From contig JBHGNT010000011.1 in NCBI GenBank assembly GCA_043228905.1, forward strand, positions 21,576,001 to 21,640,000: DNA of 64,000 bases. Direction: 5' to 3'. The position numbers were made by a program, and so were the translations under genes. The notes under the pieces are model-generated. The model was not told the DNA's origin. It did not search any database and saw only the letters and a program-made list of their open reading frames with translations. The DNA comes from Azolla caroliniana. Taxonomy: Eukaryota; Plantae; Polypodiophyta. Shown piece by piece: positions 876 through 63,314 of the stretch; positions within the stretch are counted from its first letter, which is position 1, and each line of letters starts with the position of its first letter.

Positions 876-1087
876 ATAGGATCATTGATGGGAAGGGACG
901 CAATGGTCCCAAAGCTTTTCTTTCCTTGCAAAAATGTTTTCCAATTAATAAAACATACTTTGTCTAATAAAATGGATGGATTTACTTGTTACTTTGGTGT
1001 GGAAAGTCATGCACAAAATAAAGGGAGTAGGAAGATGTTGGATGCATTGTGCACTTCAGGGATGATTGAATGGGATGACATTTAGAT

Positions 1088-4000: not shown

Positions 4001-4396
4001 GATGAAGATGTTCAAATAGCTACGGAAAGGATGAAACAATGTCAACTACGGAACAAAGAAAGATTTGATAAAACCCATCGCCTTCGACCAAGAAAGCTCC
4101 AAGAAGGTGATTGGGTCATAGTTTATGATAGCAGCTTGGATAACCAACATAGTACTTCTCGCAAATTTTCCAAAAGATGGTTCGATCCATATATCATTAG
4201 ACAAGTGAATAAAAATGCAACGTATTTCCTAATTGAAATGGATGGAGTTGCTTTAAAGTTACCAATTGCAGGAAAGCGAATTAAGCTATTCAAGAGAAGG
4301 GAAGATCAAAGCACTAACTTCCTCAACGAAGATGACATCCATGAAGCTGAAGAAGGAGACATTCATTGGCTCATGCTAGAGGATGTGCAGGTCTAG
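1088..4396 (+). pseudogene. pol (RT, RNase H, integrase) of element 1, with frameshifts and stops
   Basis: RT motifs DLYSGY, LPQGATNS and PFLDDVPIK. RNase H motif VTVDTSPIGIGW. Integrase zinc finger H..AGHRG...C..C and core VADRGE / YNLEANGKAERGH. Confidence 0.93.
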
Positions 4397-5293: not shown

Positions 5294-7190
5294 TATTAAA
5301 TATGAGTAACTAGTCTTAACCCCATGTAACTGTAAGGAAATGAGAGGCACATGAACAAAAATAAGGAGAATTGCAACTGCTATGTAATAGATAATAAGAT
5401 GGGATTACAGGCTGGAATACAACTACAAGAGTTAATTGCTACATTAGCTAGAACATAAAAAATACAACAATCTAACGTTCCTAGCTTCCACCTTATATAA
5501 TAGAGGAAGTGGAGGGAACATTGGATGTGTTTGAAAAGTACAATTACTAATAGAAAAAGAAAAGTTTAACACTAATAGTTAATAATAGTAACTAATGTAG
5601 ATGTGGTGTAGAGTTAATGTGGCAACTAAAAGTAGTTGCTTTGAAACTGTTTTGTTGTTTCTAACACCCTCTCGTAACTCTAGCACCACATTTGAGGCCA
5701 ACATGTTGGTAACAAGACCAATATTTGTCAGCAACACTAGTTTGGTCAAGAAATCTGCCCACATGTGGAGGGTAGGAGTATAATTATGGCAAATGGTACC
5801 ATCCTCAAATAATTCACACAAAAAATGATAGTAGGCCCAAATGTGCTTGTTCTGTTCAGTGATATTTGGATTCCGTTGTCGTGAAGATTTCTGGTTACGG
5901 TGAGAAAACCGGGAGGGACAAATAAAATGGGGATGTGCAACATTGCACATGCACTTGTAAATTTGTGTAATAAGAATAAGTAAACAAATGTAATGGGAAG
6001 GGTAATAATCGAAGGTGCTAAAGGTGCACTACGAAGTTTGTAGAGGCATAAATGTGATGTGTACTTTGTAGAGTAAAATGAGTAGTGGGCATTGAGAGTG
6101 AATGTGATAGGAGAGAGAGAGTTAAGGCCCACCGATTTAAGATCATGGGAGATATTCCCCATTAAAGGAAAGGGGATTTGACTCCCTCTTGTAATGTGCT
6201 CACCCCTTACTACTATAAAAGGGAGTGAGGGTTCACTTGTGAAGGGGTTGCCTATTTTGAGTGAGAGAGGTATACCACTTAGGTCGAGGGGTTCTATTCG
6301 GTTTTAAGGGTTTCTTCTAGGGTTTTCTTCGTGGGTTTCTTTTAGGGTTTCTATGCTTCTTGGCTTACTTATCCAATTAGGGTTTTCTTGTAGTCGTTTT
6401 TGGTTGTGGCCAATGCGGCCTTGGTTGTAATCTTTTGTGAACTCTTAATATAACATGTTGATGTTTCTTGTCTTGTGGGTGTATCTTGCCTCCATCTATT
6501 CTATTCTATGCTTATGTGCTATTCTTCCTCTTCTCCTCTTGAGCTAAGCTTCCATTTTGTGTCTTATTCCTTCTCCTCTACTTCCTAGTCCAAGACCCCC
6601 GTGGTCTCGCCTCGGATCCAACACGTACTCGCGGGAAACCGCGACACCGTGCTAGCGTAATGCATGACTTATTATCACACCAAAGCTGGAACTTATTAAT
6701 GTGGATAATGTTGAGTTCATCGAAAATGGAATTTAGCCAAAGTCCCTCTTTAGCGACCAAGGTGGCAACAATATACTTAGCCTTTGTGGAGGACAATGCC
6801 ACCGTAGATTGTTTCTTTGTTTTCCAAGTGATGGCACCGCCATTGAATGTGAAGAGATATCCTGATGTAGATCATGAGGTATCTTTGCCACCACCCCCAG
6901 TCTACATCTATCCTGCCATGTTGTGGAGCCGCCATTCCACCTTTAGAGAAGTCAGACAAGGCTTTGTAAGAGAGGGTCATATCACGTGTATAGTTTTAAG
7001 TACTAGAGGACACGCTTCAAGGCTTCCCAATGACAAGGACTTGGATGCTCCATAAAACGTGATAGAAAACCTGTGGAGAATGATAGGTTAGGGCGAATGC
7101 AACTCACTAAGTACTACAAACTACCAAGAATTTGGTGATATGGTATATTTTTCATAAAAGCAACTTCTTCAAGAGTAGAGGGGGAGTCGG
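5294..7190 (-). mobile_element. Degenerate Ty1/copia 3' part (RT end, RNase H, PPT, 3' LTR), interrupted by solo LTR C
   Basis: Copia RNase H motifs ALSSTKAKY..EGLWL, WCDNKSCITLAR|NPN..NKHI and ADFLTK. PPT GAGAGGG then TGTTAG at 5666(-). Outer ends are approximate. Confidence 0.8.
5877..6646 (+). mobile_element. Solo LTR C of the TGTCGTGA gypsy clan
   Basis: Termini TGTCGTGAAG...CCGCGACA. 4-bp TSD CCGT at 5873-5876 and 6647-6650. Excising it restores the copia frame ITLARNPN. Confidence 0.93.
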
Positions 7191-7644
7191 ACCTAGATAG
7201 ATGGCAAGGAACAGTGAGTGGAGGAGCAATCCATCATATCAAACATTTGAAGAATACCATCAACTAATCTATTTTGGTAAAAACAAAAAACAAAAAACCG
7301 ATCTGACCCAAGCCCCTGACTGAAGTTCGCGATGACTTCGTACATCTCTTCGGAACATACTGGTATCATCCGGTCTTCGTTAAGGTCTTCTCCGGCTACC
7401 TTCCTCAGCATTCCCAAGGTGTCGTTGAAGGAGACCGCCTCCATGGCTCCGCTGATTTCCTCGTCCGGGCCGCGAACTCCGCACGCTCGAAGTCGCACTT
7501 CCGCCCTTGCCTTTTCTCGGCCAACGATGCCGACTGTCATACACCCTCCGTTGTTGGAGAAGCAAAATTTTTTACCTATCGTACAACTGTGGGGTCTTTC
7601 CCGAGTGTCCGGACTGTCTTGGCCCCACGCCTTGGCAACCCTCT

Positions 7645-9771
7645 CTAAAAATCCTCCCGGTTCTCGCCACCGAGGGATTCGCGGTTTCGCTCGTGGTTCG
7701 GTCGCACCGTCAGAAATTGGACCGAATGGTGCCCGTCCTGGCTTTTGACCCTTGCGTAGGCCGAACCGTTGTCCAGCACCTTGGTCCCCATTCGCGCCGC
7801 CGTGATGTATGGTTCCCCTAATATGACCGGGTGCGAGGACGTCTCCTGTACGAAGAAGTGCTGGTCAATCTCGACGTCGCCGATCTTGACTCGCACGTTC
7901 GGGTAGGCCCCATGCAGTTCCTCGGTGGCGCGCGTCGCCGCCCGTATCTTCCACCCGTGCTTGGTGTTGATCGGCCACTTTCCCTTCTTATAGAAGTCCA
8001 TGGACATCAGGTTTATTTCCGAACCGTGGTCCACCAGTGCCACCACCGGTTCCTGAACATCTCCGATCTTTACCGGGGTCTCCGTGGTCGCTCGGGCCCA
8101 GTGCGGCCTTGAATAGTGACTCTCCGCCCACTCATCTTCCAGCGCCATGTTGTCGATGTGCGTCGTCCGCACCTCCACCGGTCTTTCCGGTTCCGTCTCC
8201 GTCGACAGCCTCTTCCGTTTCACCAGGTCCACAATGGACTCGTGGAACTCCTTCTTGGCGATCCCTAGCACCTCCCGCAATGACAGCTCCACTTTGCTGT
8301 CGAGGATCCGTTCTTCTAGGACCTTTCGTAGGTCCGTGGTCCTTTCTATTTCCGTCCCCAGTCGGTATCCGCCCTTCCTGGGGTTATCTTGCGCGCTGGA
8401 CCCACCGGCTTCGTTCCGTCGTTGCCCGAATCGGGTCTCGTATCGCTGTGAGGGCCCGGCCGCTCCGACTTTCCCCACTCGTTTGTCTTCTACCAGAGCC
8501 TCGTAGTTCCGGCAGGCGGCTTATACGAAGCCCGTCTTCTCCTCGACCGGGTCGCTCCACCTGGTTATTTCCCAGACCCGTCTCTTAGTGCGGTCCGCTT
8601 CATCTTTCCTCAGCCGTGCGCCGGCGAGGCCTTCCAGCATTGCTGACCAGAATCCGTCTTTGCTCTCCTTTCGGGCCTCGCTGCCCCCGACCCGAATACC
8701 GGCCGACACCGAGTAGTGGATGGCCTCCACGTGTCGGGTCGCTGCCTCTTCCATCAGTCTCTTCATACCTCCTCGCCCGTCGTTTCGGTTTAGGGCCCTT
8801 TTGGTATCGCCGGCATGCACTCGGCCTTCCCACAGGTACACCACCCGGTTCCTCAATGCCTCTGTGAAATCGCCGCAGTCCTTCCGAATGTGGCCGACCT
8901 CGTCGCACCACATGCACATGTTCCCTGCTGTCGGCCGTCGGTCACGAGCCGGTTCGCCGCCTTCCCTTCGAGTCTGGGCGATCTGGAGATCCTTTATCGC
9001 CCGCGTCAACTCCTCCAGCGCTGCTCCTCCGGACGAGTCATCGACCATGCCGGTCGAAGCCGAACCGGTTTCGAGCCACTCCCGGGTCTCTGCCCTTCGC
9101 CCTTGCGGTGCCGGTTCAAGCCTCCTTGTTGTGATAGAGCCCGCACCGGCCGCCCCGTTGTCAGCCCATTCTCACCGTTTGTTGAAACGGCCATAGACTC
9201 TCTTAACCGCAGCCCAGTCGGTCGTCAGTCCGTCTTCGGTTTCGAGCAAGGAGCCGACTTGATCCCGGTCCCGCTCGTCCACCGACTTGACAAACAGTAG
9301 GCCCCGGCTTGTATCCAGAACGGTTCGGTCAAGCATCGAAAGGCGCGCAAAGCGTTCCTCAAACTCCCGGAGGAGTGCCGACGTGTTTCTTCCCTTGCCG
9401 AGGGACTCCACCCATCCCATGAAGTCCCGTTTCGAAAGCCGGAGCGCGTCGTCCAGGCCGTATTTTTCTAGGAGTCGGCCTTCGAACTCCTCCCAGGTAC
9501 GACTCTCCGCCCGTACCTCGAGCACCTCCGCATGGATGCTCGGCATCGCCACTCGAGGGAACCCGGCAAGACGCCTCTCTTCCGGAATGTCCCGCATCAG
9601 CATTTTTGCCCCGTAGGACGCCAAATACTTCGTGGCATCCTTTCCGCTGAACCGGCCGATCGTACCGACGACCACCTCAATGGCTCTGTCGAGGGCGCCG
9701 GTGCCCTCGCGCGCGCTCAATATCTGATCCACGGCTGAAGCCATGGCCTCCGCAAGATCCGACCCCTTCAT
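7645..9771 (-). pseudogene. Gag-protease polyprotein of element A (single frame, two premature stops)
   Basis: ORFs 9172..9951, 8521..9048 and 7645..8478 share one frame. Zinc knuckle CMWCDEVGHIRKDC and protease motif VALVDHGSEINLMS. Confidence 0.88.
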
Positions 9772-9793
9772 CTTCTGCTCTTCTGCCGCCTCC

Positions 9794-9811
9794 TTCACGT
9801 CGGGTTCACCA
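9794..9811 (-). other. Primer-binding site (tRNA-Trp) of element A
   Basis: Minus strand reads TGGTGAACCCGACGTGAA, 3 nt from the LTR end. It is complementary to the plant tRNA-Trp 3' end ...TTCACGTCGGGTTCACCA. Confidence 0.85.
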
Positions 9812-10441
9812 AGATATCGAGGTATTCCTCGCGGATGCGTGGAATGAGGCGGAACCTCGGGGGTCTTGTACCGAAGAGCAAGAGAGAAAGGAGAAGGGAA
9901 GGGACCCACTAGGTGCGAGCGTAGATCCACAGGGACACGGCCCTTCGACACGAAGACGCGAGCGGGAAACCAACACAGAGAGACACGAAGGTATGTATGT
10001 ATATATTAACAGAGACAAACAACAAGAAGCACGAAGTCGGTTACAACCGAACAGGCCGGCGAATAGATGCCGATGCCTGTTCGCAAACGCTCAGAAAGAA
10101 AGGAGTAGGTTGGAGGTGCTGCCGAAAGCACTTGGGCATTCCTCAGAGCAGCGCGAGCCTCCCGAAAACTTGCACAGAAAGAAGCTACGGAGTATGGAAG
10201 AGAGAGAAGCCTTCGACCGACAACCCGACAACACTTCGTCCTCTCTGATTCCGTGATTCTTCCCCCCTCCTCGTCTCCCTCCTTTTATAGGCAAGGAAGG
10301 AGCCGTTTCCCATTAACTTCCTACCTACCGAATCTACCTACCCAGGATCTTCTATGTACAACATAAGGCGTACGTGCATGAAGAGCCGGTTCCTACGCTC
10401 CGGTGCACCGATTCCGCTTGTGGACGGTTTTCTTCACGACA

Positions 10442-11076
10442 GCGTGCGTGGAGAAAACGAGGCGGGACCACCGGGGTCTTGAACCGAAGAGCAGGTGATA
10501 GGAGGGGAAAGAGAAAGAGAGAGAGACGATCGGTTACGTATGAGCAAAGAAACACAGGGACACGGCCCGTCAACGCAGAGAACACGAATGGACACAGAGA
10601 CAGAGAGACACGAAAGTTTGTATATTAATGAATAACAAATACACAACAGAGTGCGCGAGCGGTTACAACCGACCAGGCCGGCGAACAGATGCCGATGCGT
10701 GTTCGTTTGCGCACGAAAGGGGATAGGATGGAGGTGCTGCCGGAAGCACACGGGCGTTCCTCGAAGCAGCACGAGCCTCCCGAAAACCTGCAGAGAAGAG
10801 CGATAGAGAACAAACAGAGGAGAAGCGTTCGGTTACGGTCCGACAACACTTCGTCCTCCTCAACGCGCGATCCCTTCTCCCTGCGTCTCCCTCTCCTTTA
10901 TATCGTCAAGAAGGGAGCCGTCTCCCTCATTTACTTCCTACCTACCGAATCTAACTACCCAGGATATACCTATGTACCTAATTCCCTATTATATACATTA
11001 AGGGCGCGCACGCGTGAAGAGCCGGTTCACGCGCGCTATGCACCGATTGCGCTAAGGGACGGTTTTCTTCACGACA
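10442..11076 (-). mobile_element. LTR B of the clan, with its last ~16 bp displaced by insertion of element A
   Basis: Similar along its length to LTR A and starts TGTCGTGAAG at 11076(-). It is cut at GCGT inside the conserved U5 terminal motif. ACGT flanks it at 11077-11080. Confidence 0.85.
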
Positions 11077-11105
11077 ACGTGTTTTACCCTTATACCGCCC
11101 CGTAC

Positions 11106-11680
11106 TGTTGGGATTACGGTCCCTTCGAATGGGATGGTCGGATCCGGACGGGACGGTCCCGGTTTCGGTTTCGGTACCGGATGACGAATGTACCCGGAGA
11201 GCGATCCGGATGCAGGGACATATCCGTGAATATGTTTCCTATGGGCCCATGTGGCTACAGTTGTAAATAGCCCAAAGTCATATAAGTATAAATATGACTT
11301 AGGGCAAACAGTTTTACTGTTGCTTCTTATTTTTTTCTGTTTTTCCACTTTAGAGGAGTGAAGAGGGAGCAGCCGTGCGAGAGAGAGAGAGATAGAGCGC
11401 GAGAGAGGAAGAGGACGACGCCTCTGTGTATTTCCGCCGCCTGTGGCGAGGACAGCGAGCTCAAGGTCGTCGCCTTGAGCTCGTCATTGTATACTTCTCT
11501 TTGTATAGCGTTGTTTGGAGTCTTGTACTCCCGTGGTTTTTTCCCATCTAGGGTTTTCCACGTTAATCCCTGTGTAATCGTGTATTTCTCTCTTTTGGTT
11601 CCTATTTTCTGCTTCATTGATCCGTAACTACTCGGTTGTGGCCGAGTGAAGAAGGTGAATCGAATCGTTGATTCACGACA
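11106..11680 (+). repeat. Copia 5' LTR
   Basis: TGTTGGGA...CACGACA, a direct repeat of 15798-16372. Confidence 0.97.
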
Positions 11681-11683
11681 AAT

Positions 11684-11695
11684 TGGTATCAGAGC
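11684..11695 (+). other. PBS (initiator tRNA-Met)
   Basis: TGGTATCAGAGC, 3 nt after the LTR. Confidence 0.95.
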
Positions 11696-11710
11696 GAACT
11701 GCTGCAGAAA

Positions 11711-14700
11711 ATGGAAGGCGGCGGCAGCGGGCAGCCGGGGATGATGGTGCTGAATGCACAGAATTACGCCGACTGGAAGATCAAGATGGAGGATCTTCTG
11801 ATTGTTCGGGACCTGTACGAACCGATTGACAGGTTGGAAATACCGAAGGGGGTACTTGAGTCGGAGTGGAAGCTCCTGAACCGGAAAGCCGTAGCGACGA
11901 TCCGACAATATGTCGATGTAAGCGTCCTACAACATGTGGCGAACGACACCAACGCATATGAAATGTGGAAGAAGCTGTCGGGCCTCTACGAGAGGAAGAA
12001 TGCGTTGAACCGGACCTCCCTGATGAGGAAGATTGTGAATCTCAAGTACCGGGACGGCGAGAGTATGGTGGAACACGTAAGCACGTTCATGGGATTCGTG
12101 AATCAGCTTGCGGCGATCAAGTTCCCGCTGGAGGATGCAATGCAAGCCATCATCCTGATGTGTACATTGCCGGACAGCTGGGAGAACTTGGTGGTGACTC
12201 TCAGCACCTCCTGCACCGAAGATAACTTGTCCTTGCAAACGGTAAAGACAAGTATCTTGAACGAAGAAGCGCGTCGGAGAGACAAGGAACCGGCCTCCGA
12301 ACCGAAGATGCTATTTACCGAATCGGATCGGGGAAGACAATGGAACCGGAGTCCGCAAAGACGGGAGAAGTCGGGGACCCGGTCGCAGTCAAGAGGAAGG
12401 CCCACATGCTTCCACTGTGGGAAGCCGGGGCACTTCCGAAAGAATTGTCGGCATTACCGAAAAGACAACGGAGCCGACGACACCGATTCGAAGAAGTCAC
12501 CGGAGAGAAACGGTGCATACCGGGGAGCCACGGACCGGAGAGGTTCGGATCGGCGAGGGCAGGACCGGAAAGGAACGACGGCACTCGCGGCAAGTGAAGA
12601 AGAAATCATGCTCATCACCGAAGAAGGTGAGCTAAACATTGCCGGCGATGAGACGACCTGGGTGGTCGATTCCGGAGCATCGTTCCACCTGACCCCGGAG
12701 AGAAGATACTTCTCATCCTACACAGCCGGTGAGCATGGCTGTGTTCGGATGGGAAACGAAGGTACGTGCCGGATTGCCGGCATAGGAGATGTGTGGCTGA
12801 CAACCCCGACCGGATGCAAAATGCTGCTGAAGAATGTCCGACACGTTCCGGAGGTCCGACTGAACCTGATTTCGGCCGGGAGGCTAGATGACGAAGGCTA
12901 CACGGGTAGCATCCAGAACGGCGTAATGAAGTTCAGCAAGGGGAGCCTGATAGTGGCTCGGGCCCGGAAAGACAACACACTGTACCTGATGAATGCCCGG
13001 TTATGTCCGGAAGAGCTGAATGTGGCAGCCGACACTGCCGGTGAGCTGTGGCACAAGAGACTGTGCCATATGAGTGAGAAGGGGATGAAGAGGCTTGCAG
13101 AAGACAATCTTATTCCAGTGAAGCATGTGCACCTGGAGAGGTGCACCGACTGTCTGGCCGGTAAGCAAAACCGGACCTCCTTCCACTCAAGGCCACCGAC
13201 GAGACGTAGCGCACCATTGGAGTTGGTGCACACTGATGTGTGTCAGGTAGAAACGAAGTCACATGGCGGAGCCCAGTACTTCGTAACATTCATCGATGAT
13301 CATAGCCGAAAACTGTGGTCGGCACCGATGAAGACAAAGGACCAAGTGTTGTGCGTCTTCAAAGATCTCCACGCGAGAGTGGAAAGGGAATCCGGCAAGA
13401 AGCTGAAAGCGATACGAGCGGATAACGGAGGGGAATACCGGGGGCAGTTCCAGGAGTACTGTCGCTCGAAGGGAATCCGGCTCGAGTTTACTGTGCCGAA
13501 GACGCCGGAACTGAACGGGCTGGCCGAGAGGATGAACCGGACCATAATGGAGAGGGTCCGGAGTATGCTGGCGCATGCGAAATTACCCAAGGGATTTTGG
13601 GCTGAGGCAATGTCGACGGCGACATATGTGATAAACAGATCACCCTCAGTACCTTTGGACGGAGACACGCCGCAGAGAGTGTGGACCGGTAGGGAAGTAT
13701 CCTACCGGCATCTGAAGGTGTTCGGGTGTCTCGCATACGTGCATGTGGCAAAGGACCAGAGAGGGAAGCTAGATCCAAAGACCCGGCCATGCATATTCCT
13801 CGGTTACGGCGACGACGAGTTCGGCTACCGAGTATGGGACCCGGTCGACAAGAAGATATTCAGGAGTCGAGACATCATCTTCATGGAGGACAAGACACTC
13901 GCCGACTTGGAGTCGGAGAAGAAGATGAAGAGCTCCAAGTCGACCGGTGAGGATAAACTCTACGAGGAGCAGTCCCGACCGGCAAGGGACCGGTTAGCAC
14001 TCGAGGATCCGGCCGAAGACGGTGAAGAAAGAGAACCGGCCGAGGAAGATGAAAATGATACCGGAACCGTTCCCGATCCCGAAATGGATTCGGATGAAGA
14101 AGAAGAATCAGAAGAACCGGTTACCGAAGCTCCGGAACGGAGATATCCTCTAAGAGAGAGAAGGGCCCCCCGGAGATTTCCGGAACCAGAGCACGTGCTG
14201 CTAACCGACGAAGGGGAGCCGGAGAGCTTTGAAGAAGCAAAGCATGACACCCAGAGCCGCAGGTGGTTGAGTGCCATGCAGGACGAGATGGATTCCCTGC
14301 ATGAGAACCACACATATGAACTTGTGGAGTTGCCGAAAGGAAAACGGGCACTCCGTAACAAGTGGGTGTTCAAGCTGAAACCGGGAGATGCCGGAAACCC
14401 CCCGAGATACAAAGCCAGGATCGTGGTGAAGGGGTTTCAGCAGAAGAAGGGCGTCGACTTCGACGAGATATTTGCCCCGGTAGTGAAGATGACCTCCATC
14501 CGGACGGTGCTGAGCATAGCGGCAAGCATGGACCTCGAGGTAGAACAGATGGACGTGAAGACGGCATTCCTTCACGGTGACCTCGAAGAAGAGATCTACA
14601 TGCAGCAACCGGAAGGATTCGAGAAGAAAGGGAAGGAGCACCTGGTATGCCGGTTGAAGAAGAGCCTTTACGGACTGAAGCAGGCTCCCCGGCAATGGTA

Positions 14701-15787
14701 CCGGAAGTTCGACTCCTTCATGACCGACGAAGGGTACCTCAAAACGCAGTCCGACCACTGCGTGTTTGTGAAGAAGTTCGAAGGAGGAGACTCTCTAATA
14801 CTCCTCCTGTACGTGGACGACATGTTGATCGTCGGACGGGACCAGGTCAAGATACGGATGCTGAAGAAGGCTCTTCACCGAACCTTCTCAATGAAGGACC
14901 TGGGTCTGGCGAGACAAATACTAGGGATGCACATCATCCGGGACCGGAAGAAGAAGCAGTTGTGGCTGTCACAGGAGAAGTACGTGACGAAGGTGCTTCA
15001 CCGGTTCAACATGTCGGAAGCGAGACCGGTCGGATCGTCCCTCCCGACAAACTGCAAGCTGTCCAGCAAGCAAAGTCCCAAGACAAAGGCTGAAAAGGAG
15101 GATATGAAGAAAGTGCCGTATGCCTCAGTCGTCGGGAGCTTGATGTACGCCATGGTGTGTACGAGACCGGACATCGGATATGCAGTCGGAGTGGTGAGCC
15201 GGTACATGAGCAATCCCGGTAAAGAGCATTGGAACGCGGCCAAGTGGATACTCCGATACCTGAAGGGCACAGCAAACGTGTGCCTCCGATTCGGCTCCGG
15301 AAAGCCCGAACTCGACGGCTTTACCGATTCGGATATGTCGGCTGATGCAGATACCAGCCGGTCCACATCAGGGTATGTGATGACGTATGCAGGGGGAGCT
15401 GTTTCATGGCAGTCGAGGCTGCAGAAGACGGTTGCGCTGTCAACCACGGAGGCGGAGTACATGGCGGCTGTTGAAGCCGGCAAGGAAATAATATGGATGA
15501 AGGACTTCATTGGAGAGCTCGGTATCCGGCAGAAGGAGTACCGACTCTACTGCGACAGTCAGAGTGCAATCCACCTTGCAAAGAACGCGGCCTATCACTC
15601 CCGGACGAAGCACATCCAGCGAAGATATCACTGGATCCGGGAAAGGATAGAAGACAAGGAGTTCGTGCTGACGAAGATCCACACGGACGAGAACGGGTCG
15701 GATATGCTGACCAAGGTGCTCACACCCGACAAGCTGGAAGCATGCCGGAAGAGGATCGGATTGGAGAGACATCCCATGCCGAAGTGA
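11711..15787 (+). CDS. Copia Gag-Pol polyprotein (1358 aa)
   Basis: Knuckle CFHCGKPGHFRKNC, protease WVVDSGAS, GAG-pre-integrase LWHKRLCH, integrase HTDVC/DNGGEY/NGLAERMN, RT LLYVDDML, RNase H FTDSD/CDSQSA/SDMLTK. Confidence 0.97.
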   Translation: MEGGGSGQPGMMVLNAQNYADWKIKMEDLLIVRDLYEPIDRLEIPKGVLESEWKLLNRKAVATIRQYVDVSVLQHVANDTNAYEMWKKLSGLYERKNALNRTSLMRKIVNLKYRDGESMVEHVSTFMGFVNQLAAIKFPLEDAMQAIILMCTLPDSWENLVVTLSTSCTEDNLSLQTVKTSILNEEARRRDKEPASEPKMLFTESDRGRQWNRSPQRREKSGTRSQSRGRPTCFHCGKPGHFRKNCRHYRKDNGADDTDSKKSPERNGAYRGATDRRGSDRRGQDRKGTTALAASEEEIMLITEEGELNIAGDETTWVVDSGASFHLTPERRYFSSYTAGEHGCVRMGNEGTCRIAGIGDVWLTTPTGCKMLLKNVRHVPEVRLNLISAGRLDDEGYTGSIQNGVMKFSKGSLIVARARKDNTLYLMNARLCPEELNVAADTAGELWHKRLCHMSEKGMKRLAEDNLIPVKHVHLERCTDCLAGKQNRTSFHSRPPTRRSAPLELVHTDVCQVETKSHGGAQYFVTFIDDHSRKLWSAPMKTKDQVLCVFKDLHARVERESGKKLKAIRADNGGEYRGQFQEYCRSKGIRLEFTVPKTPELNGLAERMNRTIMERVRSMLAHAKLPKGFWAEAMSTATYVINRSPSVPLDGDTPQRVWTGREVSYRHLKVFGCLAYVHVAKDQRGKLDPKTRPCIFLGYGDDEFGYRVWDPVDKKIFRSRDIIFMEDKTLADLESEKKMKSSKSTGEDKLYEEQSRPARDRLALEDPAEDGEEREPAEEDENDTGTVPDPEMDSDEEEESEEPVTEAPERRYPLRERRAPRRFPEPEHVLLTDEGEPESFEEAKHDTQSRRWLSAMQDEMDSLHENHTYELVELPKGKRALRNKWVFKLKPGDAGNPPRYKARIVVKGFQQKKGVDFDEIFAPVVKMTSIRTVLSIAASMDLEVEQMDVKTAFLHGDLEEEIYMQQPEGFEKKGKEHLVCRLKKSLYGLKQAPRQWYRKFDSFMTDEGYLKTQSDHCVFVKKFEGGDSLILLLYVDDMLIVGRDQVKIRMLKKALHRTFSMKDLGLARQILGMHIIRDRKKKQLWLSQEKYVTKVLHRFNMSEARPVGSSLPTNCKLSSKQSPKTKAEKEDMKKVPYASVVGSLMYAMVCTRPDIGYAVGVVSRYMSNPGKEHWNAAKWILRYLKGTANVCLRFGSGKPELDGFTDSDMSADADTSRSTSGYVMTYAGGAVSWQSRLQKTVALSTTEAEYMAAVEAGKEIIWMKDFIGELGIRQKEYRLYCDSQSAIHLAKNAAYHSRTKHIQRRYHWIRERIEDKEFVLTKIHTDENGSDMLTKVLTPDKLEACRKRIGLERHPMPK

Positions 15788-15797
15788 AGGGGGAGTT

Positions 15798-16372
15798 TGT
15801 TGGGATTACGGTCCCTTCGAATGGGATGGTCGGATCCGGACGGGACGGTCCCGGTTTCGGTTTCGGTACCGGATGACGAATGTACCCGGAGAGCGATCCG
15901 GATGCAGGGACATATCCGTGAATATGTTTCCTATGGGCCCATGTGGCTACAGTTGTAAATAGCCCAAAGTCATATAAGTATAAATATGACTTAGGGCAAA
16001 CAGTTTTACTGTTGCTTCTTATTTTTTTCTGTTTTTCCACTTTAGAGGAGTGAAGAGGGAGCAGCCGTGCGAGAGAGAGAGAGATAGAGCGCGAGAGAGG
16101 AAGAGGACGATGCCTCTGTGTATTTCCGCCGCCTGTGGCGAGGACAGCGAGCTCAAGGTCGTCGCCTTGAGCTCGTCATTGTATACTTCTCTTTGTATAG
16201 CGTTGTTTGGAGTCTTGTACTCCCGTGGTTTTTTCCCATCTAGGGTTTTCCACGTTAATCCCTGTGTAATCGTGTATTTCTCTCTTTTGGTTCCTATTTT
16301 CTGCTTCATTGATCCGTAACTACTCGGTTGTGGCCGAGTGAAGAAGGTGAATCGAATCGTTGATTCACGACA
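15798..16372 (+). repeat. Copia 3' LTR
   Basis: One difference from the 5' LTR found by eye (C11419 vs T16111). Confidence 0.97.
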
Positions 16373-17160
16373 CGTACAACTCCTATGGGTAACACATGAC
16401 ACGCCTGTGGGACAGTGCATCGCACGGTGAACCCACTCGCCATGGCAACTATTCACGACCGGAACTCCATCGGTCATCTCAACGGTCGGAAATCCATCGA
16501 CCGGATCATAGCTCTACGATCCATAACGTCGATCGGAGCATTGCATAACTCGAACCTTCTCATTCGGTCAGCATATCGCTCAATTGGATCACACACCAAT
16601 TGGCTCCTCCATTGCGGCATGGCCCTTTCATGATTCTGTTACATGTATGTGTATTTTTCGGTTTCTTCATGTGAATTGAGCTTTGTATTTTGTACCCTTG
16701 GTCTCTAAAATTTTTACCCTCAAGTTTTTTGTTTTTTGTTTTTTGGCCCTTGAGTTTTCGAAATTCTACATTCTGCCCTCCACTTTTTGAAATCTCACCC
16801 CTTGAGCTTTTAAAATTTCATCTTCTCTGCCCTTATGTTTCTAAAATTTTCTCTTCATACCCCTCTTCTCTTTCTTCGTTTCCTTCTGTCTCCTCTTTTT
16901 CTTCTTCTACGTTCTTCTCTTCTTCTGCTTCTTCTTCCTCCTCTTCGTTTCTTCCAATTTGTCTTCTCTTGGCCTCCTCTCTCCTTCTATCTGGTGGCCG
17001 TCTCGACCCGCTAGCTCTGTCTGCTGGTTGTTTGGTTCTCTCGGCCGGCTGGCTGGCTCTCTGTCTTTCCGCCACCGTCGGTTGTCGTCGTATCTCGGTA
17101 GGCTCTTGGCTGACGCTGATCTCTCAGCCAATTCTTGGCTCAACCTTCTTTCGGCCATCA

Positions 17161-17450
17161 CTTGGCCGTACTCTTGGTCGCGCGTCTCGACCGTATACTC
17201 AGCCATGCGTCTTGGCCGTACACTCAACCACACGTCTCGGGGGCATTCTTGGCCGCGTGTCTCGGCTGTACTCTCGGTCATGCGACTTGGCCGTACTCTC
17301 GGCCCTGCATCTCGGCCGTACTCTTAGCCACACGTCTCACCCACCCGCATTCTCAACCGCTCGTGTCAGCCGTACTCTCAGCCACCCATCTCGGCCGTGC
17401 GTCTAAGCCGTGCATCTCAGCCGTAATCGCGCCACGTGTCTCGGCCGCAC
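17161..17450. repeat. GC-rich 25-bp minisatellite, ~11 degenerate copies
   Basis: Consensus approx. CTCGGCCGTACTCTCAGCCACGCGT. Units start at 17161, 17186, 17211, 17236, 17261, 17286 and 17311. Confidence 0.85.
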
Positions 17451-18546
17451 ATGTGGGCCACCTTCGGATGTCTGCTTATGGCCGTTTGTGACCGTGGCCA
17501 TCTCTGCCACCATTCTATTCAGAGTTCCTCATGTGTAAAGACCTTCCACTATTATAGCCATATGTTGGGGAAAATGTTATCCGCAACTGATCCCAAAGTC
17601 TTTGTAATCGCGGGGATGCTAGATCGGATAGAACGGCAGATTGTTGCCTTCCCATCTTCACCTTGAGCTTGACCTTGACCAGAGGCGGGGATAATTATGC
17701 ATCAGAGATCACACTCCATGAGATTGGATAGCCGTATCTCACTTGGCCTCAACAGGTGCGTGTAGATAAAGCAGAAAGATTCGAGATCTGAAGCAAACTC
17801 CGAAACAGGGCATGGCAGTGGGAGAACAGTAGCTACAATAAAAGAGCATGAAGAGGACAACCCCCTAGTATCGTTGTGGCAGAAGAGAGGATTAATAATG
17901 GCGATGGATCCAAGAAATGGCGGCAATGGAAGAAGTGTTGTAGGGATTAAGAACAGATACTCTGTCGCGTTGCAGGGAGCACGGGAACAGAGTCAGCGTG
18001 CATTTGTGCTTCGATCCATGTTCATGCAAGCAGTAGTAAGCTCTTTATCTGATCCGGCAATGGGGTGTATTATCATGGGATGTGTGATCTGTTGGCGGCT
18101 CCTCTTGTTGGGCCACTAGCAGTGGCAGCCGCCATGGCTCCTCCTCCTGCTCCAACTCCTTCTGCGTTGCCCCACTATACATGCAGGTTTGGGAATCAGG
18201 GGCACTTAGAGGAGGCCAAAGTTTACATCCATGGCGTTCATCCTACAGAAGAGGAAGCGTCATCATCATCATCATCATAGGTGGGGGTTGGTCTTTGGGT
18301 CTCTCTTTCTTTCCAGTTGGCTATGGCTTCTTCTTCTACTACAACGGCGACGATTCATTTGATTCTTCTTCTCCCATTCGAAATGCAGTCTCATGCTTTC
18401 GATCGTTTTCTATTCACTCGTTGCACCCCCTCTAGCATCACATCTTTAATGATGTCTTGCATACTATTTGGACATAGAGATGCTTGAGTTGCAAGTGAAG
18501 TGTTACCCGTAGGAGTGGTACGGGGCGATATAAGGGTAAAACACGT

Positions 18547-19227
18547 TGTCGCGTTGTTACGCGCGTGCGTGGAGAAGGGCGGAACCACGGGGGTCTTGGA
18601 CTAAGGAGAAGGGGAGAAGGAATAGGACTTCGGAATGGAGCTTAGCACAAGAAGAGAAAGAATGAACAAGAGGAAGATGGAGGCCAAATGCTCAACAAGA
18701 TATATTAGAAACGAAAACCGATTACAAAATGGCGGCCGCGTAGGCCGCACCGAACGGCTATGATAAACCCGAAACCCTAATCCGACGAAGAAGAAAAGAA
18801 ACCCTAACTAAGGAACCCTAAACGAAATGGTATACCTCACTCACACTCCAAAATAAGGCAACCCCCACAATGGTGCTCTTCCTCTCCTTTTATAGCACAA
18901 GGAGAGAAGACCGTTTTCAAAAAGGGTGCTACAAAATATCCCCTTTCAATCAATGGGGATATTTCCCTTGATTTTAGGGGAGGTGGGAAGGATGGGTCTT
19001 AACTCCCACCTCTACACGAACTACCACGTACCTATCTCCCTCTCTCACGTGGATGTGCGCGCAAAAGCACATCACCTTTACACTTTACAAATCCTAAGGT
19101 GCATTTCTAGCACCATACTTATCACTATCGATAAATAGAAATACAACATGGTGATGTGCAACGTTGCACATCGCGGGTTTGCTTGCTTCGCTCGGTTTTC
19201 CGCCTATGGACGAAAATCTTCACGACA
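18547..19227 (-). mobile_element. Solo LTR D of the clan
   Basis: Minus strand reads TGTCGTGAAG...ACGCGACA. TSD ACGT at 18543-18546 and 19228-19231. Confidence 0.92.
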
Positions 19228-19231
19228 ACGT

Positions 19232-22200
19232 TGTCGTGAAGAATTTCGGCCAGAGGCGGAAACCGGGAACATCGGTTACATCGGCGGGGTGTAGCGTGTG
19301 TACGCACCCATGTACATTTAGTGTGAATATCGAGGGCGCCTTTATGGCGCCGAAGAGTAGTCAAGTCGGGACAGACGATCCCATGTAAGTCGGGATTTGT
19401 CCCACATTTTAACGCATCCCTTTCCTTGTTCTATAAAAGGAAGGGGACGCCCTTTGTGAAAGGGTTGCCCATTTTGCATTAGAGGGTATACCGTTAGGTT
19501 TAGAGTTAGGTTTTTTTTTTCTTCTTCTTCTTCTCCTTCGTGTTCGCTTAGGGTTTGCTTCAGCTCATCTCCTGTGCAAGACCCTGCTCGGCGCGACGAG
19601 CCCGTGAGCTCCCCGACGGCGGCTTGGCAGCTGGCGACTACTGTAACCTGCCTTGAAACGGCTCGAAGCCGGGAATGTATTCTTCTGTTTATATATATAC
19701 ATTTGCGTCTGTCTGTCTATTAGCGTCTCGGTCGGTGTCGGGTGCTTCCCGGAAACGGTGAAGCACGACTTCCTACGCTCTGTCACTCCCTGGTCCAAGA
19801 CCCCCGTGGTCCCGCCTTTCTCCACGCACGCGCGTAACAACGCGACATATTTGGTGAACCCGACGTGAAAGACGGCAAGGGAGGATGGAATTGGAAGACG
19901 ACGACCTTGCGGAGATGGTGGCCGAAGTGGTGTTGGAGTCGGCACGAGTGGTGATGAGGTGAGAAGTAGCGCAACAAGCTGTTGAGCGAGTGGTCGAAAG
20001 AGTCGACCGTTTCAACGGGGACAAAGTCCCATCTTACTTGGAAGCCTATAACGCGGAAATGGAGGAGCGTGGCGTAGACGAGGCGTTGAGGCTGGAGTTC
20101 TTCTGTCGGGTCGTGCCTGTCCGGATGCATGCGGAAATAAAGGTGCTCCGTGAGGCTCACAGTTCATGGGAAGCCTTCGAAGAGACGCTCCCGAGGGCAT
20201 TCGGAGGATGGCGGAAGAGTCGGGGATGACACGACTTCGACCAGTGGGTAGCATCGGCAAAGACCCACCGGGGCGCGACCAAGGCGTTCCGAGAGTTCGA
20301 GCGACGGCTTGCTCGGCTCCCGGAGCGGGAACAAGGATTGGTGGGGGTGGACAAGGTCCTATTGTTCGTCAGGTCGATCGACCGAGCGGAACGGGAGGCC
20401 ATCGGGATTGAGCTCGAAGACGATGACGGAGCGAATGGGCTTACAGAGGACTGGTTGAAGGTCAGAAGGGTGTGCCGACGGCTAGATGATGAGCGAGCCG
20501 ACAAGGCTAAGAGGAAGGTACGCGACGGCGTGCCATCACAGCGGGAAGAGGCCGAATGACAAAGAGAGTCGGCAAGGGTCGGCGTTGGGGCTAGGATTGC
20601 GGAGGCGTACGCAGCTCTCGAGGCGATGCTCGAGGAAGAGGAAAGACGGAAGCTGCAAGCCGAGACTGAGAAGACGGACTTGCCCCACGCGACGACAGAA
20701 GATCGATACGTCGGTACCACGGGAGAGGGTGCGGAACGAAACGCCCTCTCGACTTGCGGAGATAGAATGGCCAAGGACGAGGCCAAGATACAGATCGCGG
20801 AACCGGAACGTTGGGACCGGCGGTTTCGGGCGTGTCCGCCCGAGATCCCGGTCATTGGAGAAGCAAGCCCAGACGGGGCTTGCGCGATCGGTAAGAAGAC
20901 GACCGCCGACCACGAAGAGTCAGTGGCTACGGACAAGGGTGTAAAATGGACGGGCGATTCTTTGTGTCTTCCCACACTTGCTCCCGAGACGATGGCAGTC
21001 GGGCCCGAGTGCCCACGTGAGTCCCAAGCGGAGGAAGGCGGCGACGAAAGACCGAGAATCACCGGCGAGACGATACGGGGAAGGAGCGGACGAAAGCCCA
21101 CGGACCCAATTCCGGAGAACTTGGCATTCGGGCCCGTATGCCCATGTAAGATCAAGGAGATGGATGGCGGTACCGAGGAGTCCTGGCACGATGCCAACGA
21201 AGTCGGATGGGAAACGGCCTGCGAGGAGGCCGAGGACGGACGCGGCACGAGGAGATCGGCATTCCGATACGGGTGGAGCATGATCCGGTCGTGGATTGTT
21301 CGATCGGGGCCGGGTTCGGCATCACAGTGCCGAAACGGAAGAGGGTGCGGGACGAGCCACCCTCTTTTACATGGGGAGAAAGACCGACCGAGCGAAGGTC
21401 GAGATTTGGAATGAGAATGAAAGCCGGTCCTATGGGATTCCTTATGTCGATTCGGCTGCAGGCCCGAGTGCCGGCGTGAGTCCTATAAGAGAGATCGGTG
21501 GCGACAGGAGAATGGGACTCGGCAATCCGGAGAAAGACGAACGAACCCGAGCGAGAACCGGGCGGAGCGGACTCCCGGATGACCATTCCGGGAAGGAGGG
21601 AGAGAGTTGGCCTACGAAGAGGCCGAGGACACGGTACGTCAGTACCACGGGAGAGGGTGCGGAACAAAACGCCCTCTCGGCATGCGGAAAAGGACGACTC
21701 GGGACAGGGTCGGGAAGGCAAATCGGAAGCCCAAGGAGGTTCCTTCACACCGGTTCTAGAGACTTCGACAGTCGGCAACGCGGTCGACGTAAGACCAAGA
21801 TACTGACGGTGACGGCGAGGTGACAAAGGCAATGGGCGTAAGGAAGTCCGGTCCTACGGGATCCCCACACTTAACCGGAGACTACGGCTGTTCGGCCAAC
21901 GTGGCAACGTAAGACCGAGGGAGAAGGAAGGTGGCGGCGGGAAATGGGACCCGACTATGCGGAAGACACGAGGAGAGTCCGGGAGGGACTCAAAACAAAG
22001 GCACCTGAATTACGGCAAGCATAGAAACGGGGTCCGGTCCTATGGGACCCTCACACCGAACCGGAGACTCCGGCAGTTCGGCCAACGTGGCAACATGAGA
22101 CCGAGAGAGAAGGTTGGTGGCGGCAAGGAACGGGACCCGACGACACGAGGTTTTGGAAGGAGCCGGTAGGGGCAAACACGGGGAGGTGTGTCAGGCTGGA

Positions 22201-24067
22201 AAGGCACACCTGGGATAGAACAAGAGTCTCGCAAGTGGCCATCGCGGGCCGGATCGGCGCGGACGGGGCTGAACGAAGGAAGCGGAAGACGGCACAAGGG
22301 AGGTGCCGAGAACGAGGTGACAAGTGCCTAGTGGACTGCACAAGGTCGGAGTCAGGGGATGGCAAGAGAGGCCGGAGGAGGATCCTCCACACTCGCTTCG
22401 TAGATCTCGGTAGCTCTGTCGAAGTAGCGAAGACAGACACGCCAAGCCGAGATGACAAGCTGGTGGGGGCGAGGGGATGACGGCAAGCGGAAGAATCAGG
22501 ACCTATTGCGGCAGCACGAAGACGGGAAGGGCCAAGCGGGCTACTACGGGGTTTTCCTCGGATGCAAAGGACACCGGTATGTGGGTGAGTGGTGATGCAC
22601 GATCTGGTCGGAAAAGGGCCGACAAGGCGTGCAATGAACCGGAGTACGGCACAAGCGGTGCCAAACCACGGGCGGGGGTACATGGCACACAGAGGTGTCG
22701 AAGCAAAAAGGCGAGCATGGAGATAAGTTGCGCGGTTTGGAGGTATCGCGGAGAAGACCGGAAAGGGATCCCCACACCGTTCTAGAGACCATGGCGGTTC
22801 GAGCCGACGCGGCGATGTAAGACCATGAAGAAGGAAGGTGGCGGCGAGAGGACGAGGGCAACGCGAAATGACAAGGGATGGCAATCAGGGCGACGCGAAT
22901 GATCAACGGAGGCCAAGCGGGCCATCGGGCATACAACGAGAAGCGGGGCGTTCATACGGCCGAACAAGGGCCAACGGAAGTACGCGTACTACGGAGATTG
23001 CGGCGGAGGACCCATCGACGGGTCGAACGAGCCTACGGGGAGGCGAGCGCGAAGGAAGACTCGAAGCCGGCGGATCAAACCGGTAGCGAGCCAAGATGCG
23101 GATCACGGGAGACCGGTTTCTCACCGGCCGAAATCTCTCACCCTTCAACCAGATTTGGCACGTACCGGTGGACGTGCAGTTAGGTGGGGGCGGATGTCGT
23201 GAAGAATTTCGGCCAGAGGCGGAAACCGGGAACATTGGCTACATCGGCGGGGTGCAGCGTGTGTACGCACCCATATACATTTAGTGTGAATATCGAGGGC
23301 GCCTTTATGGCGCCAAAGAGTAGTCAAGTCGGGACAGACAATCCCATGTAAGTCGGGATTTGTCCCACATTGTAATGCATCCCTTTCCTTGTTCTATAAA
23401 AGGAAGGGGACGCCCTTTGTGAAAGGGTTGCCCATTTTGCATTAGAGGTCATGAAACGTGGCAGGGTTCAGGAACCCCAAGACACGACTCTCCCGCGAAC
23501 CGTGATTCGCGGGTCGTAGCGAGGTTCTTGAGTCATGAAACGTGGCCCAGTCACGGTATATCGTTAGGTTTAGAGTTAGTTTTTTTTTTCTTCTTCTTCT
23601 TCTTCTCCTTCGTGTTCGCTTAGGGTTTGCTTCAGCTCATCTCCTACGCAAGACCCCGCTCGGCGCGACGAGCCTGTGAGCTCCCCGACGGCGGCTTGGC
23701 AGCTGACGACTACTGTAACCTGCCTTGGAACAGCTCGAAGCCGGGAATGTATTCTTCTGTTTATATATATACATTTGCGTTTGTCTGTCTATTCGCGTCT
23801 CGGTCGATGTCGGGTGCTTCCCCTTTTCTGCGTTTCCTGTACATAAGGGCGTGAGTCGTGTCGGCATGTGTGTGTATGTGTGTGTGTGTGCGTGAGTCGG
23901 TGTTAAGCGCGCGCTCCCTCTCTTTCTCTCTCTCCCTTCGGTCGCTTCCGATGTTCTTCTGGGGTCCCCCGGAAACGGTGAAGCATGACTTCCTACGCTC
24001 TGTCACTCCCTGGTCCAAGACCCCCGTGGTCCCACCTTTCTCCACGCACGCGCGTAACAACGCGACA
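19232..24067 (+). mobile_element. Full-length non-autonomous (gag-only) gypsy element E
   Basis: LTRs at 19232-19847 and 23195-24067. TSD ACGT at 19228-19231 and 24068-24071. tRNA-Trp PBS at 19852-19869, PPT at 23182-23194. No RT or integrase motifs inside. Confidence 0.93.
19885..21414 (+). pseudogene. gag-derived ORF of element E (one frame, three TGA stops)
   Basis: ORFs 19990, 20338 and 20626 share one frame. RFNGDKVPSYL, REFERRLARL, LLFVRSID and GLTEDW align with element A gag. Confidence 0.8.
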
Positions 24068-24580
24068 ACGTTAAAGGGGTTGTTCGGTATGTGTAATGTG
24101 TATGAGTGTGAGGATGAGTATGTGTGAGCACATGCACAATTATGCGCATGTGACAAGAATGTAACAGTCTCTTTTTGTAACGGACATATTATTTACCGTT
24201 ACATTATGTATTATATAAACCCCTTATGGGGCATGTAATGGGATATAGTTTTCTCCCCTCTCATTTGGTGTCATTTTCTATTTTTCTTTCTCTCTCGCTC
24301 TCTCTCTAACGTAACCCCCTTGGGAGGGGGTGAAGCCATTCTAGGCTTCACCCCCCACCCCAACAACACTTTTGGCACACTTGAAAGGCCGACCCTCTCT
24401 TGAGAGGAAGTCTATCGCTCACTCTCCCTTTCCCTCACTAATATGTCTTTGCTCTCTCTCTCTCTCTCCTTGTTGGTCTTTGTGTTAGAGAGTGTGATTT
24501 GTGCATGAACTCTCTATGTGAGAGCTCACGTGCGATGGAGATCTCCACACTACCTCCCTTGAGAAGAAGTTATGTGTATA

Positions 24581-27365: not shown

Positions 27366-27739
27366 ATAAGCTATCTTAATGGTTGAGGTTTTCAAGTATG
27401 AATTACAAGGTTCGAGGTTCAAGTCCGGGTGACGCCATAATGGTCATGTGTTCATGACAACTACTCACTTTCACACGTGAAATGTAATATTTTTGGTCTC
27501 ATAGGTCATATTTGACCTCCGAAGACGATAATATAATCTATCTATCTATCACTCCACACACACACGCACAATTCTTCCGCATCACTCTCGATTCTTTACA
27601 CCTCTTGTTGGAACTATGAGTTGAAGAGAAGCATGTAAAGAAAAGACGAGGGAGTCCGGGCCTCGAAGAAATACAATATGTCATGACATGCAAAGAAGGT
27701 TATGTGGTAGCCATAATATGGGTAAGAGCAGCTTACGAT

Positions 27740-28200
27740 AACCCAACTGCAAATACAATATGTCAATGGAGATATAAACTTGATGTCCATGGACGTCTAC
27801 AAAAGGGGAGATGGTCGATATACATTGAACACATGTGGAAGATAACAATGGTTGTGTGAGTGACTTGGGAGCTACATAGGGATTGCCCAATGATAAAGGA
27901 AAAGGTCAGGGATGTGGAAATTAACCATGATTTCTTCGTGCAAGAGACATTGTCTCGGCCACTTATTTTGGGAGAGCCATACGTTACAACGACTCATATG
28001 GAGATGATTGTGTCAAGATGGGAAGAGTTTGGTTTAGTAGTTTTTTACGGTTAGGCGGAACCACAAGCAAAACAAGAACCCCCTCAAAGGCGAGATTTGG
28101 GAGGATTTTTTATGCAGTAGATTATTAAAGCGTGGGATCGCAATAGCTTGGGACATGTTAAGTCCCCAAATGTTATGATAAGTGTTGTTGTCCCAAATTT
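27740..28200 (+). pseudogene. Highly decayed protease region of the TGTCGTGA clan
   Basis: INLMSMD.YK and DVEINHDFFVQETLSRPLILGEPY. GGATTTT at 28103-28109. Confidence 0.75.
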
Positions 28201-28325
28201 AGTAATTTTGTTTTGTTTTCGGAGAATGAGGCCTATAAATAATCTAGTTTAGATAGGAAAACAGGCCTAGGGTTCAAAGGTTTGAAAGTCGTTTGAAGCT
28301 CACAGGTAACAACCATGTCTTTTGT

Positions 28326-28842
28326 TGTCATAAATTTCCATGCCCTCTTTCGCCACCTCCTCTTGAAGATCCTTCTCCTTTACCCAAGTAAGAAAACCTT
28401 AATAAAATATCCCAAAGAAAAGGAAGTGTACACTCACAAACCCTAAAACAACCCAAGTAAGAAGGAGGAGAAGTGGCTCAATATCCACTCTCACACCACA
28501 CACAGTAAATCCCTAAAACCCATGAAAGAAAGAAGAAGACAAGCTCTTCAAAAAGACCAAATGCTCCCCAACAATCTCAAAACATAATCAACCCTCAAGC
28601 CTCGTTTATAGCAAGAGAATAGGCTAATAAACCACATTAAATGTTTACGTACCCGTTCTCATGAAGATGCTAAAAAAGGTAATTTCTTCATACGCCAACC
28701 ATATTTGAACCGTTCCCCTTTCCGCCTTTTCCACATTTTTTTATTTATTATCATATTATTGTTTTCATATATACATATACTATATATTTGTAGTTGTCCC
28801 CTTTTCCTTATATTTTGCTTCTCGACATGCCACGTCATGACA
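28326..28842 (-). mobile_element. Old solo LTR F (probably same clan)
   Basis: Ends TGTCAT...ATGACA look like CpG-decayed TGTCGT. Flanks are TTGT and ATGT. A minus-strand TATA and TAGGGTTT motifs are arranged as in LTR D. Confidence 0.5.

Positions 28843-61422: not shown

Positions 61423-63314
<1,892 letters not shown>

What the first reader, a model, noticed from the sequence alone, without database searches (positions are those of the whole stretch)
5873..24071. Gypsy clan that integrates at CpG-centred 4-bp targets (NCGT)
Seen: every readable junction of the TGTCGTGA...CGACA clan has a central CG. These are CCGT/CCGT (solo LTR C), ACGT/ACGT (solo LTR D), ACGT/ACGT (element E), ACGT beside LTR B (11077) and GCGT where A cut LTR B (10442). 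Old LTR F has TTGT/ATGT, the expected CpG-decay product. Known: most plant LTR elements make 5-bp, weakly specific TSDs, as the copia here does (CGTAC). Sequence-specific 4-bp TSDs are known from insect errantiviruses and, from memory, Ginger1 integrase transposons. Inference: this integrase reads CpG, possibly methylated, which would steer it into CpG-rich TE nests and away from AT-rich genes. Only about four of the sites are independent.
Basis: partly seen in the sequence, partly recalled or inferred. Interest (0 to 1): 0.78.

Follow-up and report, generated by a model that had tools for sequence, protein, structure and literature searches.

The report
Fern retrotransposons that insert at CG
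A family of jumping genes in a fern inserts almost only at four-base sites with CG in the middle (78 of 85 independent junctions), a habit already described for the likely related Phygy elements of moss, while the idea that the enzyme senses DNA methylation remains untested.

Summary
The window's junctions read as reported: CCGT/CCGT, ACGT/ACGT, ACGT/ACGT, ACGT and GCGT. They reduce to three target positions hit by five LTR insertions. Old LTR F (TTGT/ATGT) is not a clean duplication. In 120 metagenome loci with a clan LTR start, 78 of 85 de-duplicated host junctions have a central CG against a 3.4% background; ACGT accounts for 36. The preference is not new. Neumann et al. 2019 report 4-bp NCGN target duplications for the moss Phygy lineage, with tRNA-Trp priming. 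This clan matches on TSD, primer site and domain order, shows no chromodomain or extra RNase H, and is 45-57% identical to Physcomitrium gag-protease proteins. A tree with REXdb references could not be built. Not found in my literature searches: a fern host, the narrower [ACG]CG[CGT] rule, repeated use of single ACGT sites, and an unusual DRGEL target-contact loop. Methyl-CpG reading and steering away from genes are untested, and many flanks are CpG-poor. Verdict: a new member of a known kind.

The parts
1..4396 (+). Degraded autonomous clan element: gag end (DUF4100-type), protease, GGATTTTT frame junction (866-873), RT, RNase H, integrase (HHCC, DDE with DRGEL, GPY/F-type C-terminus, no chromodomain found)
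   Evidence: Pfam; tblastn with P0001 at 77-92% identity
4401..4438 (+). Polypurine tract followed by a short (about 26 bp) recognisable LTR start beginning TGTCGTGA; no TSD readable
   Evidence: not hit by the A-E LTR profile
5873..6650 (+). Solo LTR C (5877-6646) with CCGT/CCGT duplication
7300..10441 (-). Truncated element A: LTR 9815-10441, Trp-type primer site 9794-9811, gag-protease, frame junction 7647-7654, start of pol; left end approximate
10442..10445 (.). GCGT target, where A inserted near the 3' end of LTR B
10446..11076 (-). LTR B, last ~20 bp displaced by A; ACGT at 11077-11080
11081..18542 (.). Insert of 2190 bp (excluding the copia) with 43-bp terminal inverted repeats (40 of 43 match) and ACGT on both sides; likely a non-autonomous DNA transposon
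   Evidence: longest stop-free frame 243 aa
11101..16377 (+). Young copia element (LTRs 574 of 575 identical, 1371-aa ORF) with 5-bp CGTAC duplication, inside the left inverted repeat; internal control
18543..19231 (-). Solo LTR D (18547-19227) with ACGT/ACGT
   Evidence: 36 contigs of run X1 fit up to 18543 and then diverge
19228..24071 (+). Non-autonomous element E (19232-24067): LTRs 594 of 616 identical, primer site 19852-19869, gag remnant 19969-20526, no pol found, PPT before 23195; ACGT/ACGT
27475..27478 (.). Empty ACGT in a short dispersed repeat; three metagenome loci (L011, L045, L107) carry clan LTRs at this same base
28322..28846 (-). Old LTR F (28326-28842) with TTGT/ATGT flanks, beside a decayed clan protease relic (27770-28110, +)

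Best explanation
This is a fern Ty3/gypsy LTR-retrotransposon clan, likely of the Phygy lineage, that makes 4-bp target duplications centred on CG, mostly ACGT, and whose integrase likely selects that local sequence itself. Shown: the TSD rule, the Trp-type primer site, the RT-RH-INT order, no chromodomain detected, and non-autonomous (E) and solo-LTR (C, D) derivatives. Inferred: reverse transcription is primed by tRNA-Trp and pol is reached by a frameshift at GGATTTTT. Inferred: the intasome kinks the target at the central pyrimidine-purine step, as 4-bp retroviral integrases do. Inferred: it must also read the bases, because the commoner TA, CA and TG steps are barely used. The DRGEL loop after the second catalytic Asp is a candidate contact. 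Each insertion leaves two fresh ACGT copies and CG-rich LTR ends, which would let later copies stack on one site.
For: 78 of 85 junctions have a central CG; ACGT is 36 against 5 expected among NCGN sites. T-first or A-last sites are 5 of 78 against 58% expected. Central steps among 84 sites: CG 78, TG 3, CA 1, TA 0, with background TA 6.1%, CA 7.3%, TG 7.1%, CG 3.3%. Phygy is described as 4 bp 100% (NCGN), tRNA-Trp 81%, no extra domain, n=186. The primer site matches the reverse complement of a human tRNA-Trp end at 16 of 18 bases and is the exact complement of a CCA-ended plant small RNA. 18 Physcomitrium proteins are among the 120 listed hits to A's gag-protease, at 45-57% (50% over 318 aligned residues). 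Riccia integrases are 52-68% identical where they cover 85% or more of the query. Pfam finds no chromodomain or second RNase H. The model folds like PFV integrase (Z 20.6, rmsd 2.8 A over 160 residues). Central YR steps and avoidance of T at the joining point are general retroviral rules (PMC4422553).
Against: No REXdb Phygy RT or integrase was available, so lineage placement rests on diagnostic features and gag-protease similarity, and the tree (quick mode) has no named lineage references. Only 2 of 7 solo-type loci with both flanks had identical 4-mers. One differed at one base and four disagreed; I read those as recombinants or short-read chimeras, which is untested. The metagenome hosts are not shown to be the window's species. 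The scan covered only the A/B-type LTR start. The window's pol belongs to an older copy whose own TSD is unreadable.
Confidence: 0.82

Rival explanations
1. The integrase prefers methylated CpG, so the clan is steered into heterochromatic TE nests without a chromodomain.
For: Strict central CG; dense nesting in this window; 4 of the 6 non-CG sites are single CpG-decay products, so such sites are methylated at least after insertion.
Against: No methylation data. Decay after insertion is expected for any TE flank. Many flanks are CpG-poor (25th percentile CpG observed/expected 0.44, n=83). Local preference of PFV and HIV integrases is largely independent of chromatin (PMC4422553 abstract).
Confidence: 0.12
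2. The clan is a separate non-chromovirus lineage (sister to Phygy, or TatI-like without the extra RNase H) that shares the NCGN rule.
For: Fern host, whereas Phygy was defined as specific to Physcomitrella; TatI also has 4-bp TSDs and tRNA-Trp; no direct tree with references.
Against: All tested Phygy diagnostics are met; no extra RNase H detected; close Physcomitrium homologues exist; Phygy has also been annotated in a liverwort (PMC12885004).
Confidence: 0.13
3. The CG excess is an artefact of CG-rich nests, of shared TSDs, or of ascertainment.
For: In the window three LTR insertions share one ACGT, and the nest is 7.5% CG.
Against: The 20-nt scan pattern lies wholly inside the LTR. CG counts at other flank positions are 0-6 of 85, against 78 at the TSD centre.
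Confidence: 0.01

Closest known systems
Phygy (REXdb non-chromovirus Ty3/gypsy; Neumann et al. 2019, PMC6317226)
   Same: 4-bp NCGN TSD, tRNA-Trp primer site, no extra domain; Physcomitrium gag-protease homologues at 45-57%.
   Different: Fern host. The rule here is narrower ([ACG]CG[CGT], ACGT 46%); per-element Phygy TSDs were in an unreadable supplement, so this may not differ. Non-autonomous 4.8-kb derivative.
TatI (REXdb)
   Same: 4-bp TSD, tRNA-Trp.
   Different: TatI always carries an archaeal-type RNase H; none was detected here. No NCGN preference reported.
Selgy (REXdb)
   Same: Non-chromovirus, 4-bp TSD.
   Different: tRNA-Ala primer; no NCGN preference reported.
Ginger1 DNA transposons (PMC2836005)
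   Same: Gypsy-type integrase, TGT termini, 4-bp CG-centred TSD (CCGG 75%, CCGT/ACGG 24%).
   Different: Cut-and-paste animal elements without RT or LTRs. CCGG dominates there but is 2 of 78 here. Kinship of the integrases was not tested.
Prototype foamy virus intasome
   Same: Among the top structural matches of the model (Z 20.6, tied within 1 Z with several PFV entries); central YR preference; avoidance of T at the joining point.
   Different: Only a weak sequence preference. Small neutral Ala188 where this clan has DRGEL and a loop one residue shorter.

Membership tests
Ty3/gypsy | Domain order protease-RT-RNase H-integrase | tested here: met
Phygy | 4-bp TSD with NCGN preference | tested here: met
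   78 of 85 junctions; window pairs C, D, E; exact pairs in L016 and L050
Phygy | tRNA-Trp primer binding site | tested here: met
   A and E sites; 16 of 18 to a published tRNA-Trp end; exact complement of a CCA-ended plant small RNA
Phygy | No chromodomain and no additional RNase H | tested here: met
   Pfam at E<=0.05 on the intact relative P0001; Riccia P0020 gives only a sub-threshold RVT_3 hit overlapping its RNase H
Phygy | Clusters with REXdb Phygy in RT/RH/INT trees | not testable with these tools
   REXdb fasta too large to read; indirect support from Physcomitrium gag-protease hits
Phygy | Element size 7.7-10 kb | tested here: inconclusive
   No intact autonomous copy in the window; E is 4.8 kb and non-autonomous
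TatI | Additional archaeal-type RNase H | tested here: not met
Selgy | tRNA-Ala primer site | tested here: not met
   primer site is Trp-type
Chromoviruses (Tcn1 and others) | C-terminal chromodomain; mostly 5-bp TSD | tested here: not met
Ginger1 | TIR DNA transposon without RT or LTRs | tested here: not met
   RT, LTRs, primer site and PPT are present
Methyl-CpG-targeting integrase | Preference for methylated over unmethylated CpG | not testable with these tools
   no methylome or biochemistry available

The most novel reading that the evidence does not exclude
The Phygy-type integrase is a chromodomain-free reader of methylated CpG, using its distinctive DRGEL loop. It re-targets its own freshly made ACGT duplications and CG-rich LTR ends, and so builds self-stacking heterochromatic islands across mosses, liverworts and ferns.
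Probability: 0.12. Interest if true: 0.75.

Novelty: new member of a known kind. Interest (0 to 1): 0.3.

Why it matters
Phygy was singled out as the one plant LTR lineage with a sequence-specific target, on evidence from a single moss. This extends the rule to a fern clan with a quantified site profile. It suggests the specificity is old and conserved among spore plants; liverwort homologues carry the same DRGEL loop, though their TSDs were not examined. It also gives an intact pol (P0001) and a candidate loop for asking how an LTR integrase reads CG and whether methylation matters, which I found addressed in none of my searches.

Tried and rejected
No whole genome was held and the genome index did not complete, so there is no genome-wide TSD logo for the window's own species. 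The inverted repeat of the B-D insert was not found in 120 loci, genome contigs or viral contigs, so its family is unassigned. A 6-bp GingerRoot-like duplication was rejected because the bases after E's ACGT do not fit. Seven viral-contig hits to an LTR-start pattern were dropped: five had no LTR-profile hit and two only weak ones (bit scores 7.7 and 8.3). Two of their four distinct flanks happen to have a central CG. L047 has no profile support and counts are given with and without it. A search for a tRNA gene matching the primer site gave one locus with no tRNA. No LTR end lay directly upstream of an LTR start in the 91 host-type junctions, so head-to-head stacking is not common in short-read contigs, which would tend to miss it. 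LTR F was rejected as clean evidence. Three look-ups of earlier scan findings were empty. The careful integrase tree did not finish; only the quick tree was seen.

Full report
OBSERVATION. A profile built from six window LTRs and 14 locus LTRs finds exactly six LTRs in the window (C, A, B, D, and both of E). Solo LTR C (5877-6646) has CCGT/CCGT, solo LTR D (18547-19227, minus) ACGT/ACGT, and element E (19232-24067) ACGT/ACGT. B has ACGT at its start, A entered B at GCGT, and the copia has the 5-bp CGTAC. The arrangement is B, ACGT, insert, ACGT, D, ACGT, E, ACGT, which most simply derives from one ACGT hit four times (inference; B's other flank is lost). The window therefore holds five LTR insertions at three positions, p about 4e-4 at the nest's CG frequency. 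LTR F is at 28326-28842; its TTGT/ATGT flanks need a transversion besides CpG decay.

OUTSIDE TEST. No genome was held, so I scanned metagenome contigs with the 20-base start shared by LTRs A and B. This gave 120 loci from 43 of 64 parts of the collection. Of these, 29 follow the polypurine tract and are 3' LTRs; 91 do not. Six were removed as duplicates, leaving 85, of which 78 have a central CG (background 3.35% in 24,756 flank positions; p 4e-106). Two of the six removed (L045, L107) later proved to be distinct loci, both ACGT, so the count is conservative. L047 has no LTR-profile support; without it the count is 78 of 84, and four of the six exceptions are TG or CA. The leading sites are ACGT 36, CCGT 12, ACGG 8, ACGC 7 and GCGT 4. 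Sites starting with T or ending with A are 5 of 78 against 58% expected. At LTR 3' ends, 10 of 11 host flanks have a central CG. In run X1, 36 contigs fit through ACGT to 18543 and then diverge (559 loose-end rows were not shown). Against this: of seven solo-type loci with both flanks, two match exactly (L016, L050), one differs at one base (L066) and four disagree (L035, L048, L052, L070). The hosts of these contigs are not shown to be the window's species.

IDENTITY. The host is a fern: the best named hits of the GH17 gene are Adiantum and Ceratopteris at 71-77%. The element at 1-4396 and element A share gag-protease homology and the GGATTTTT junction, which links the pol to the LTR clan. 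The intact relative P0001 (89% identical in integrase) has RT, RNase H, HHCC and core integrase domains, with no chromodomain or second RNase H at E<=0.05. A and E carry the same 18-base primer site. It matches the reverse complement of a human tRNA-Trp end at 16 of 18 bases (10.1101/400127, one passage) and is the exact complement of a CCA-ended plant small RNA (PMC5846777, passages). A's gag-protease hits 18 Physcomitrium proteins at 45-57% among 120 listed, plus four Adiantum proteins and one Riccia protein. The integrase groups with Riccia integrases in a quick tree without named lineage references.

WHAT IS KNOWN. Neumann et al. 2019 (PMC6317226; passages; supplementary file 5 read whole) state that Phygy elements have an insertion preference for NCGN, unlike other plant lineages: 186 elements, 4 bp in 100%, tRNA-Trp in 81%. 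Their per-element table and the REXdb fasta were too large to read; they may already show the ACGT bias and would allow the direct membership test. PMC6911290 (passages) confirms 4-bp TSDs for Phygy and reports Phygy nested in Tcn1. PMC12885004 (passages) lists Phygy in a liverwort, enriched at centromeres. Ginger1 uses CCGG/CCGT/ACGG (PMC2836005, passages); GingerRoot uses 6 bp (PMC6839031, passages). PMC9002660, PMC7466625, PMC11899658, PMC8282616 and PMC9033089 (passages) added nothing on target sites of this lineage. I found no paper on NCGN targeting in ferns or on its link to methylation in searches; for most hits I saw only the listing, and the library lacks most subscription papers.

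MECHANISM. Shown: the site rule. From established knowledge (PMC4422553, abstract and section 14): retroviral integrases favour a flexible central pyrimidine-purine step, more so with short TSDs; they avoid T at the joining point; and a small residue (PFV Ala188, HIV Ser119) shapes flanking preference. The clan obeys the first two rules, but flexibility alone cannot explain it: TA, CA and TG are each about twice as common as CG in the flanks and account for 4 of 84 sites. Direct base readout is therefore inferred. The model (mean pLDDT 84.5) matches PFV integrase (Z 20.6, rmsd 2.8 A over 160 residues). After the second catalytic Asp the clan has DRGEL in 56 of 78 aligned rows and aligns to PFV with a one-residue gap in this loop. 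This is a candidate determinant, not a demonstrated one. Re-use of single sites (the window's stack; three loci at one ACGT of a repeat that is empty at 27475) hints at context effects beyond four bases, but the base preference outside the TSD is weak and the repeat's copy number is unknown.

METHYLATION AND STEERING. Nothing here tests methylation. Flanks have median GC 0.42 and CpG observed/expected 0.65 (5th to 95th percentile 0.27-1.2; n=83). Their CG density is 3.3 per 100 bp (n=57), against 1.3 in the window's genic part and 7.7 in the nest. Of 85 flanks, 18 hit TE proteins, 23 with window matches added, and 31 with matches between flanks added. A CG-requiring integrase would drift toward CG-rich DNA passively, and these data need no more than that.

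VERDICT. A real and strong feature, correctly seen, but a published property of the lineage to which the clan most likely belongs. The added value is the fern host, the quantified profile, the re-used sites and a testable loop. New member of a known kind; interest 0.3.

Noticed in passing
window 11077-18546: A 2.2-kb insert with 43-bp terminal inverted repeats sits between LTRs B and D with ACGT on both sides. It can be read as G-ended with an ACGT duplication or as TG-ended with a CG duplication. It contains a 25-bp tandem array near 17160-17440.
   Followed up: partly
window 27475-27554; L011, L045, L107: A ~90-bp repeat next to (AG)n/(ATAG)n tracts is empty in the window but carries clan LTRs at the same ACGT in three distinct loci, with two LTR subfamilies: a possible hot site.
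   Followed up: partly
window 10442-10445; run X12: One X12 contig joins a D-type LTR start plus ACGT to the same CG-rich spot near an LTR 3' end where A cut B; L081 and L073 also show LTR-in-LTR insertions at GCGT.
   Followed up: partly
window 866-873, 7647-7654, 28103-28110: All three clan gag-protease copies end at GGATTTTT, a likely frameshift site between gag-protease and pol.
   Followed up: no
window 24660-26236 (-): A second, truncated copia copy about 95% identical to the first in RT but with a ~79% identical LTR.
   Followed up: no
window 52923-54356, 38938-39537, 62628-63314: Host genes: GH17-X8 glucanase (best named hits Adiantum and Ceratopteris, 71-77%), a Rieske-domain protein and a tubulin; these indicate a fern.
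   Followed up: partly
window 19852-19869: The primer site is the exact complement of the abundant plant small RNA annotated as miR894, which ends in CCA and is likely a tRNA-Trp 3' fragment; it could silence this clan.
   Followed up: no
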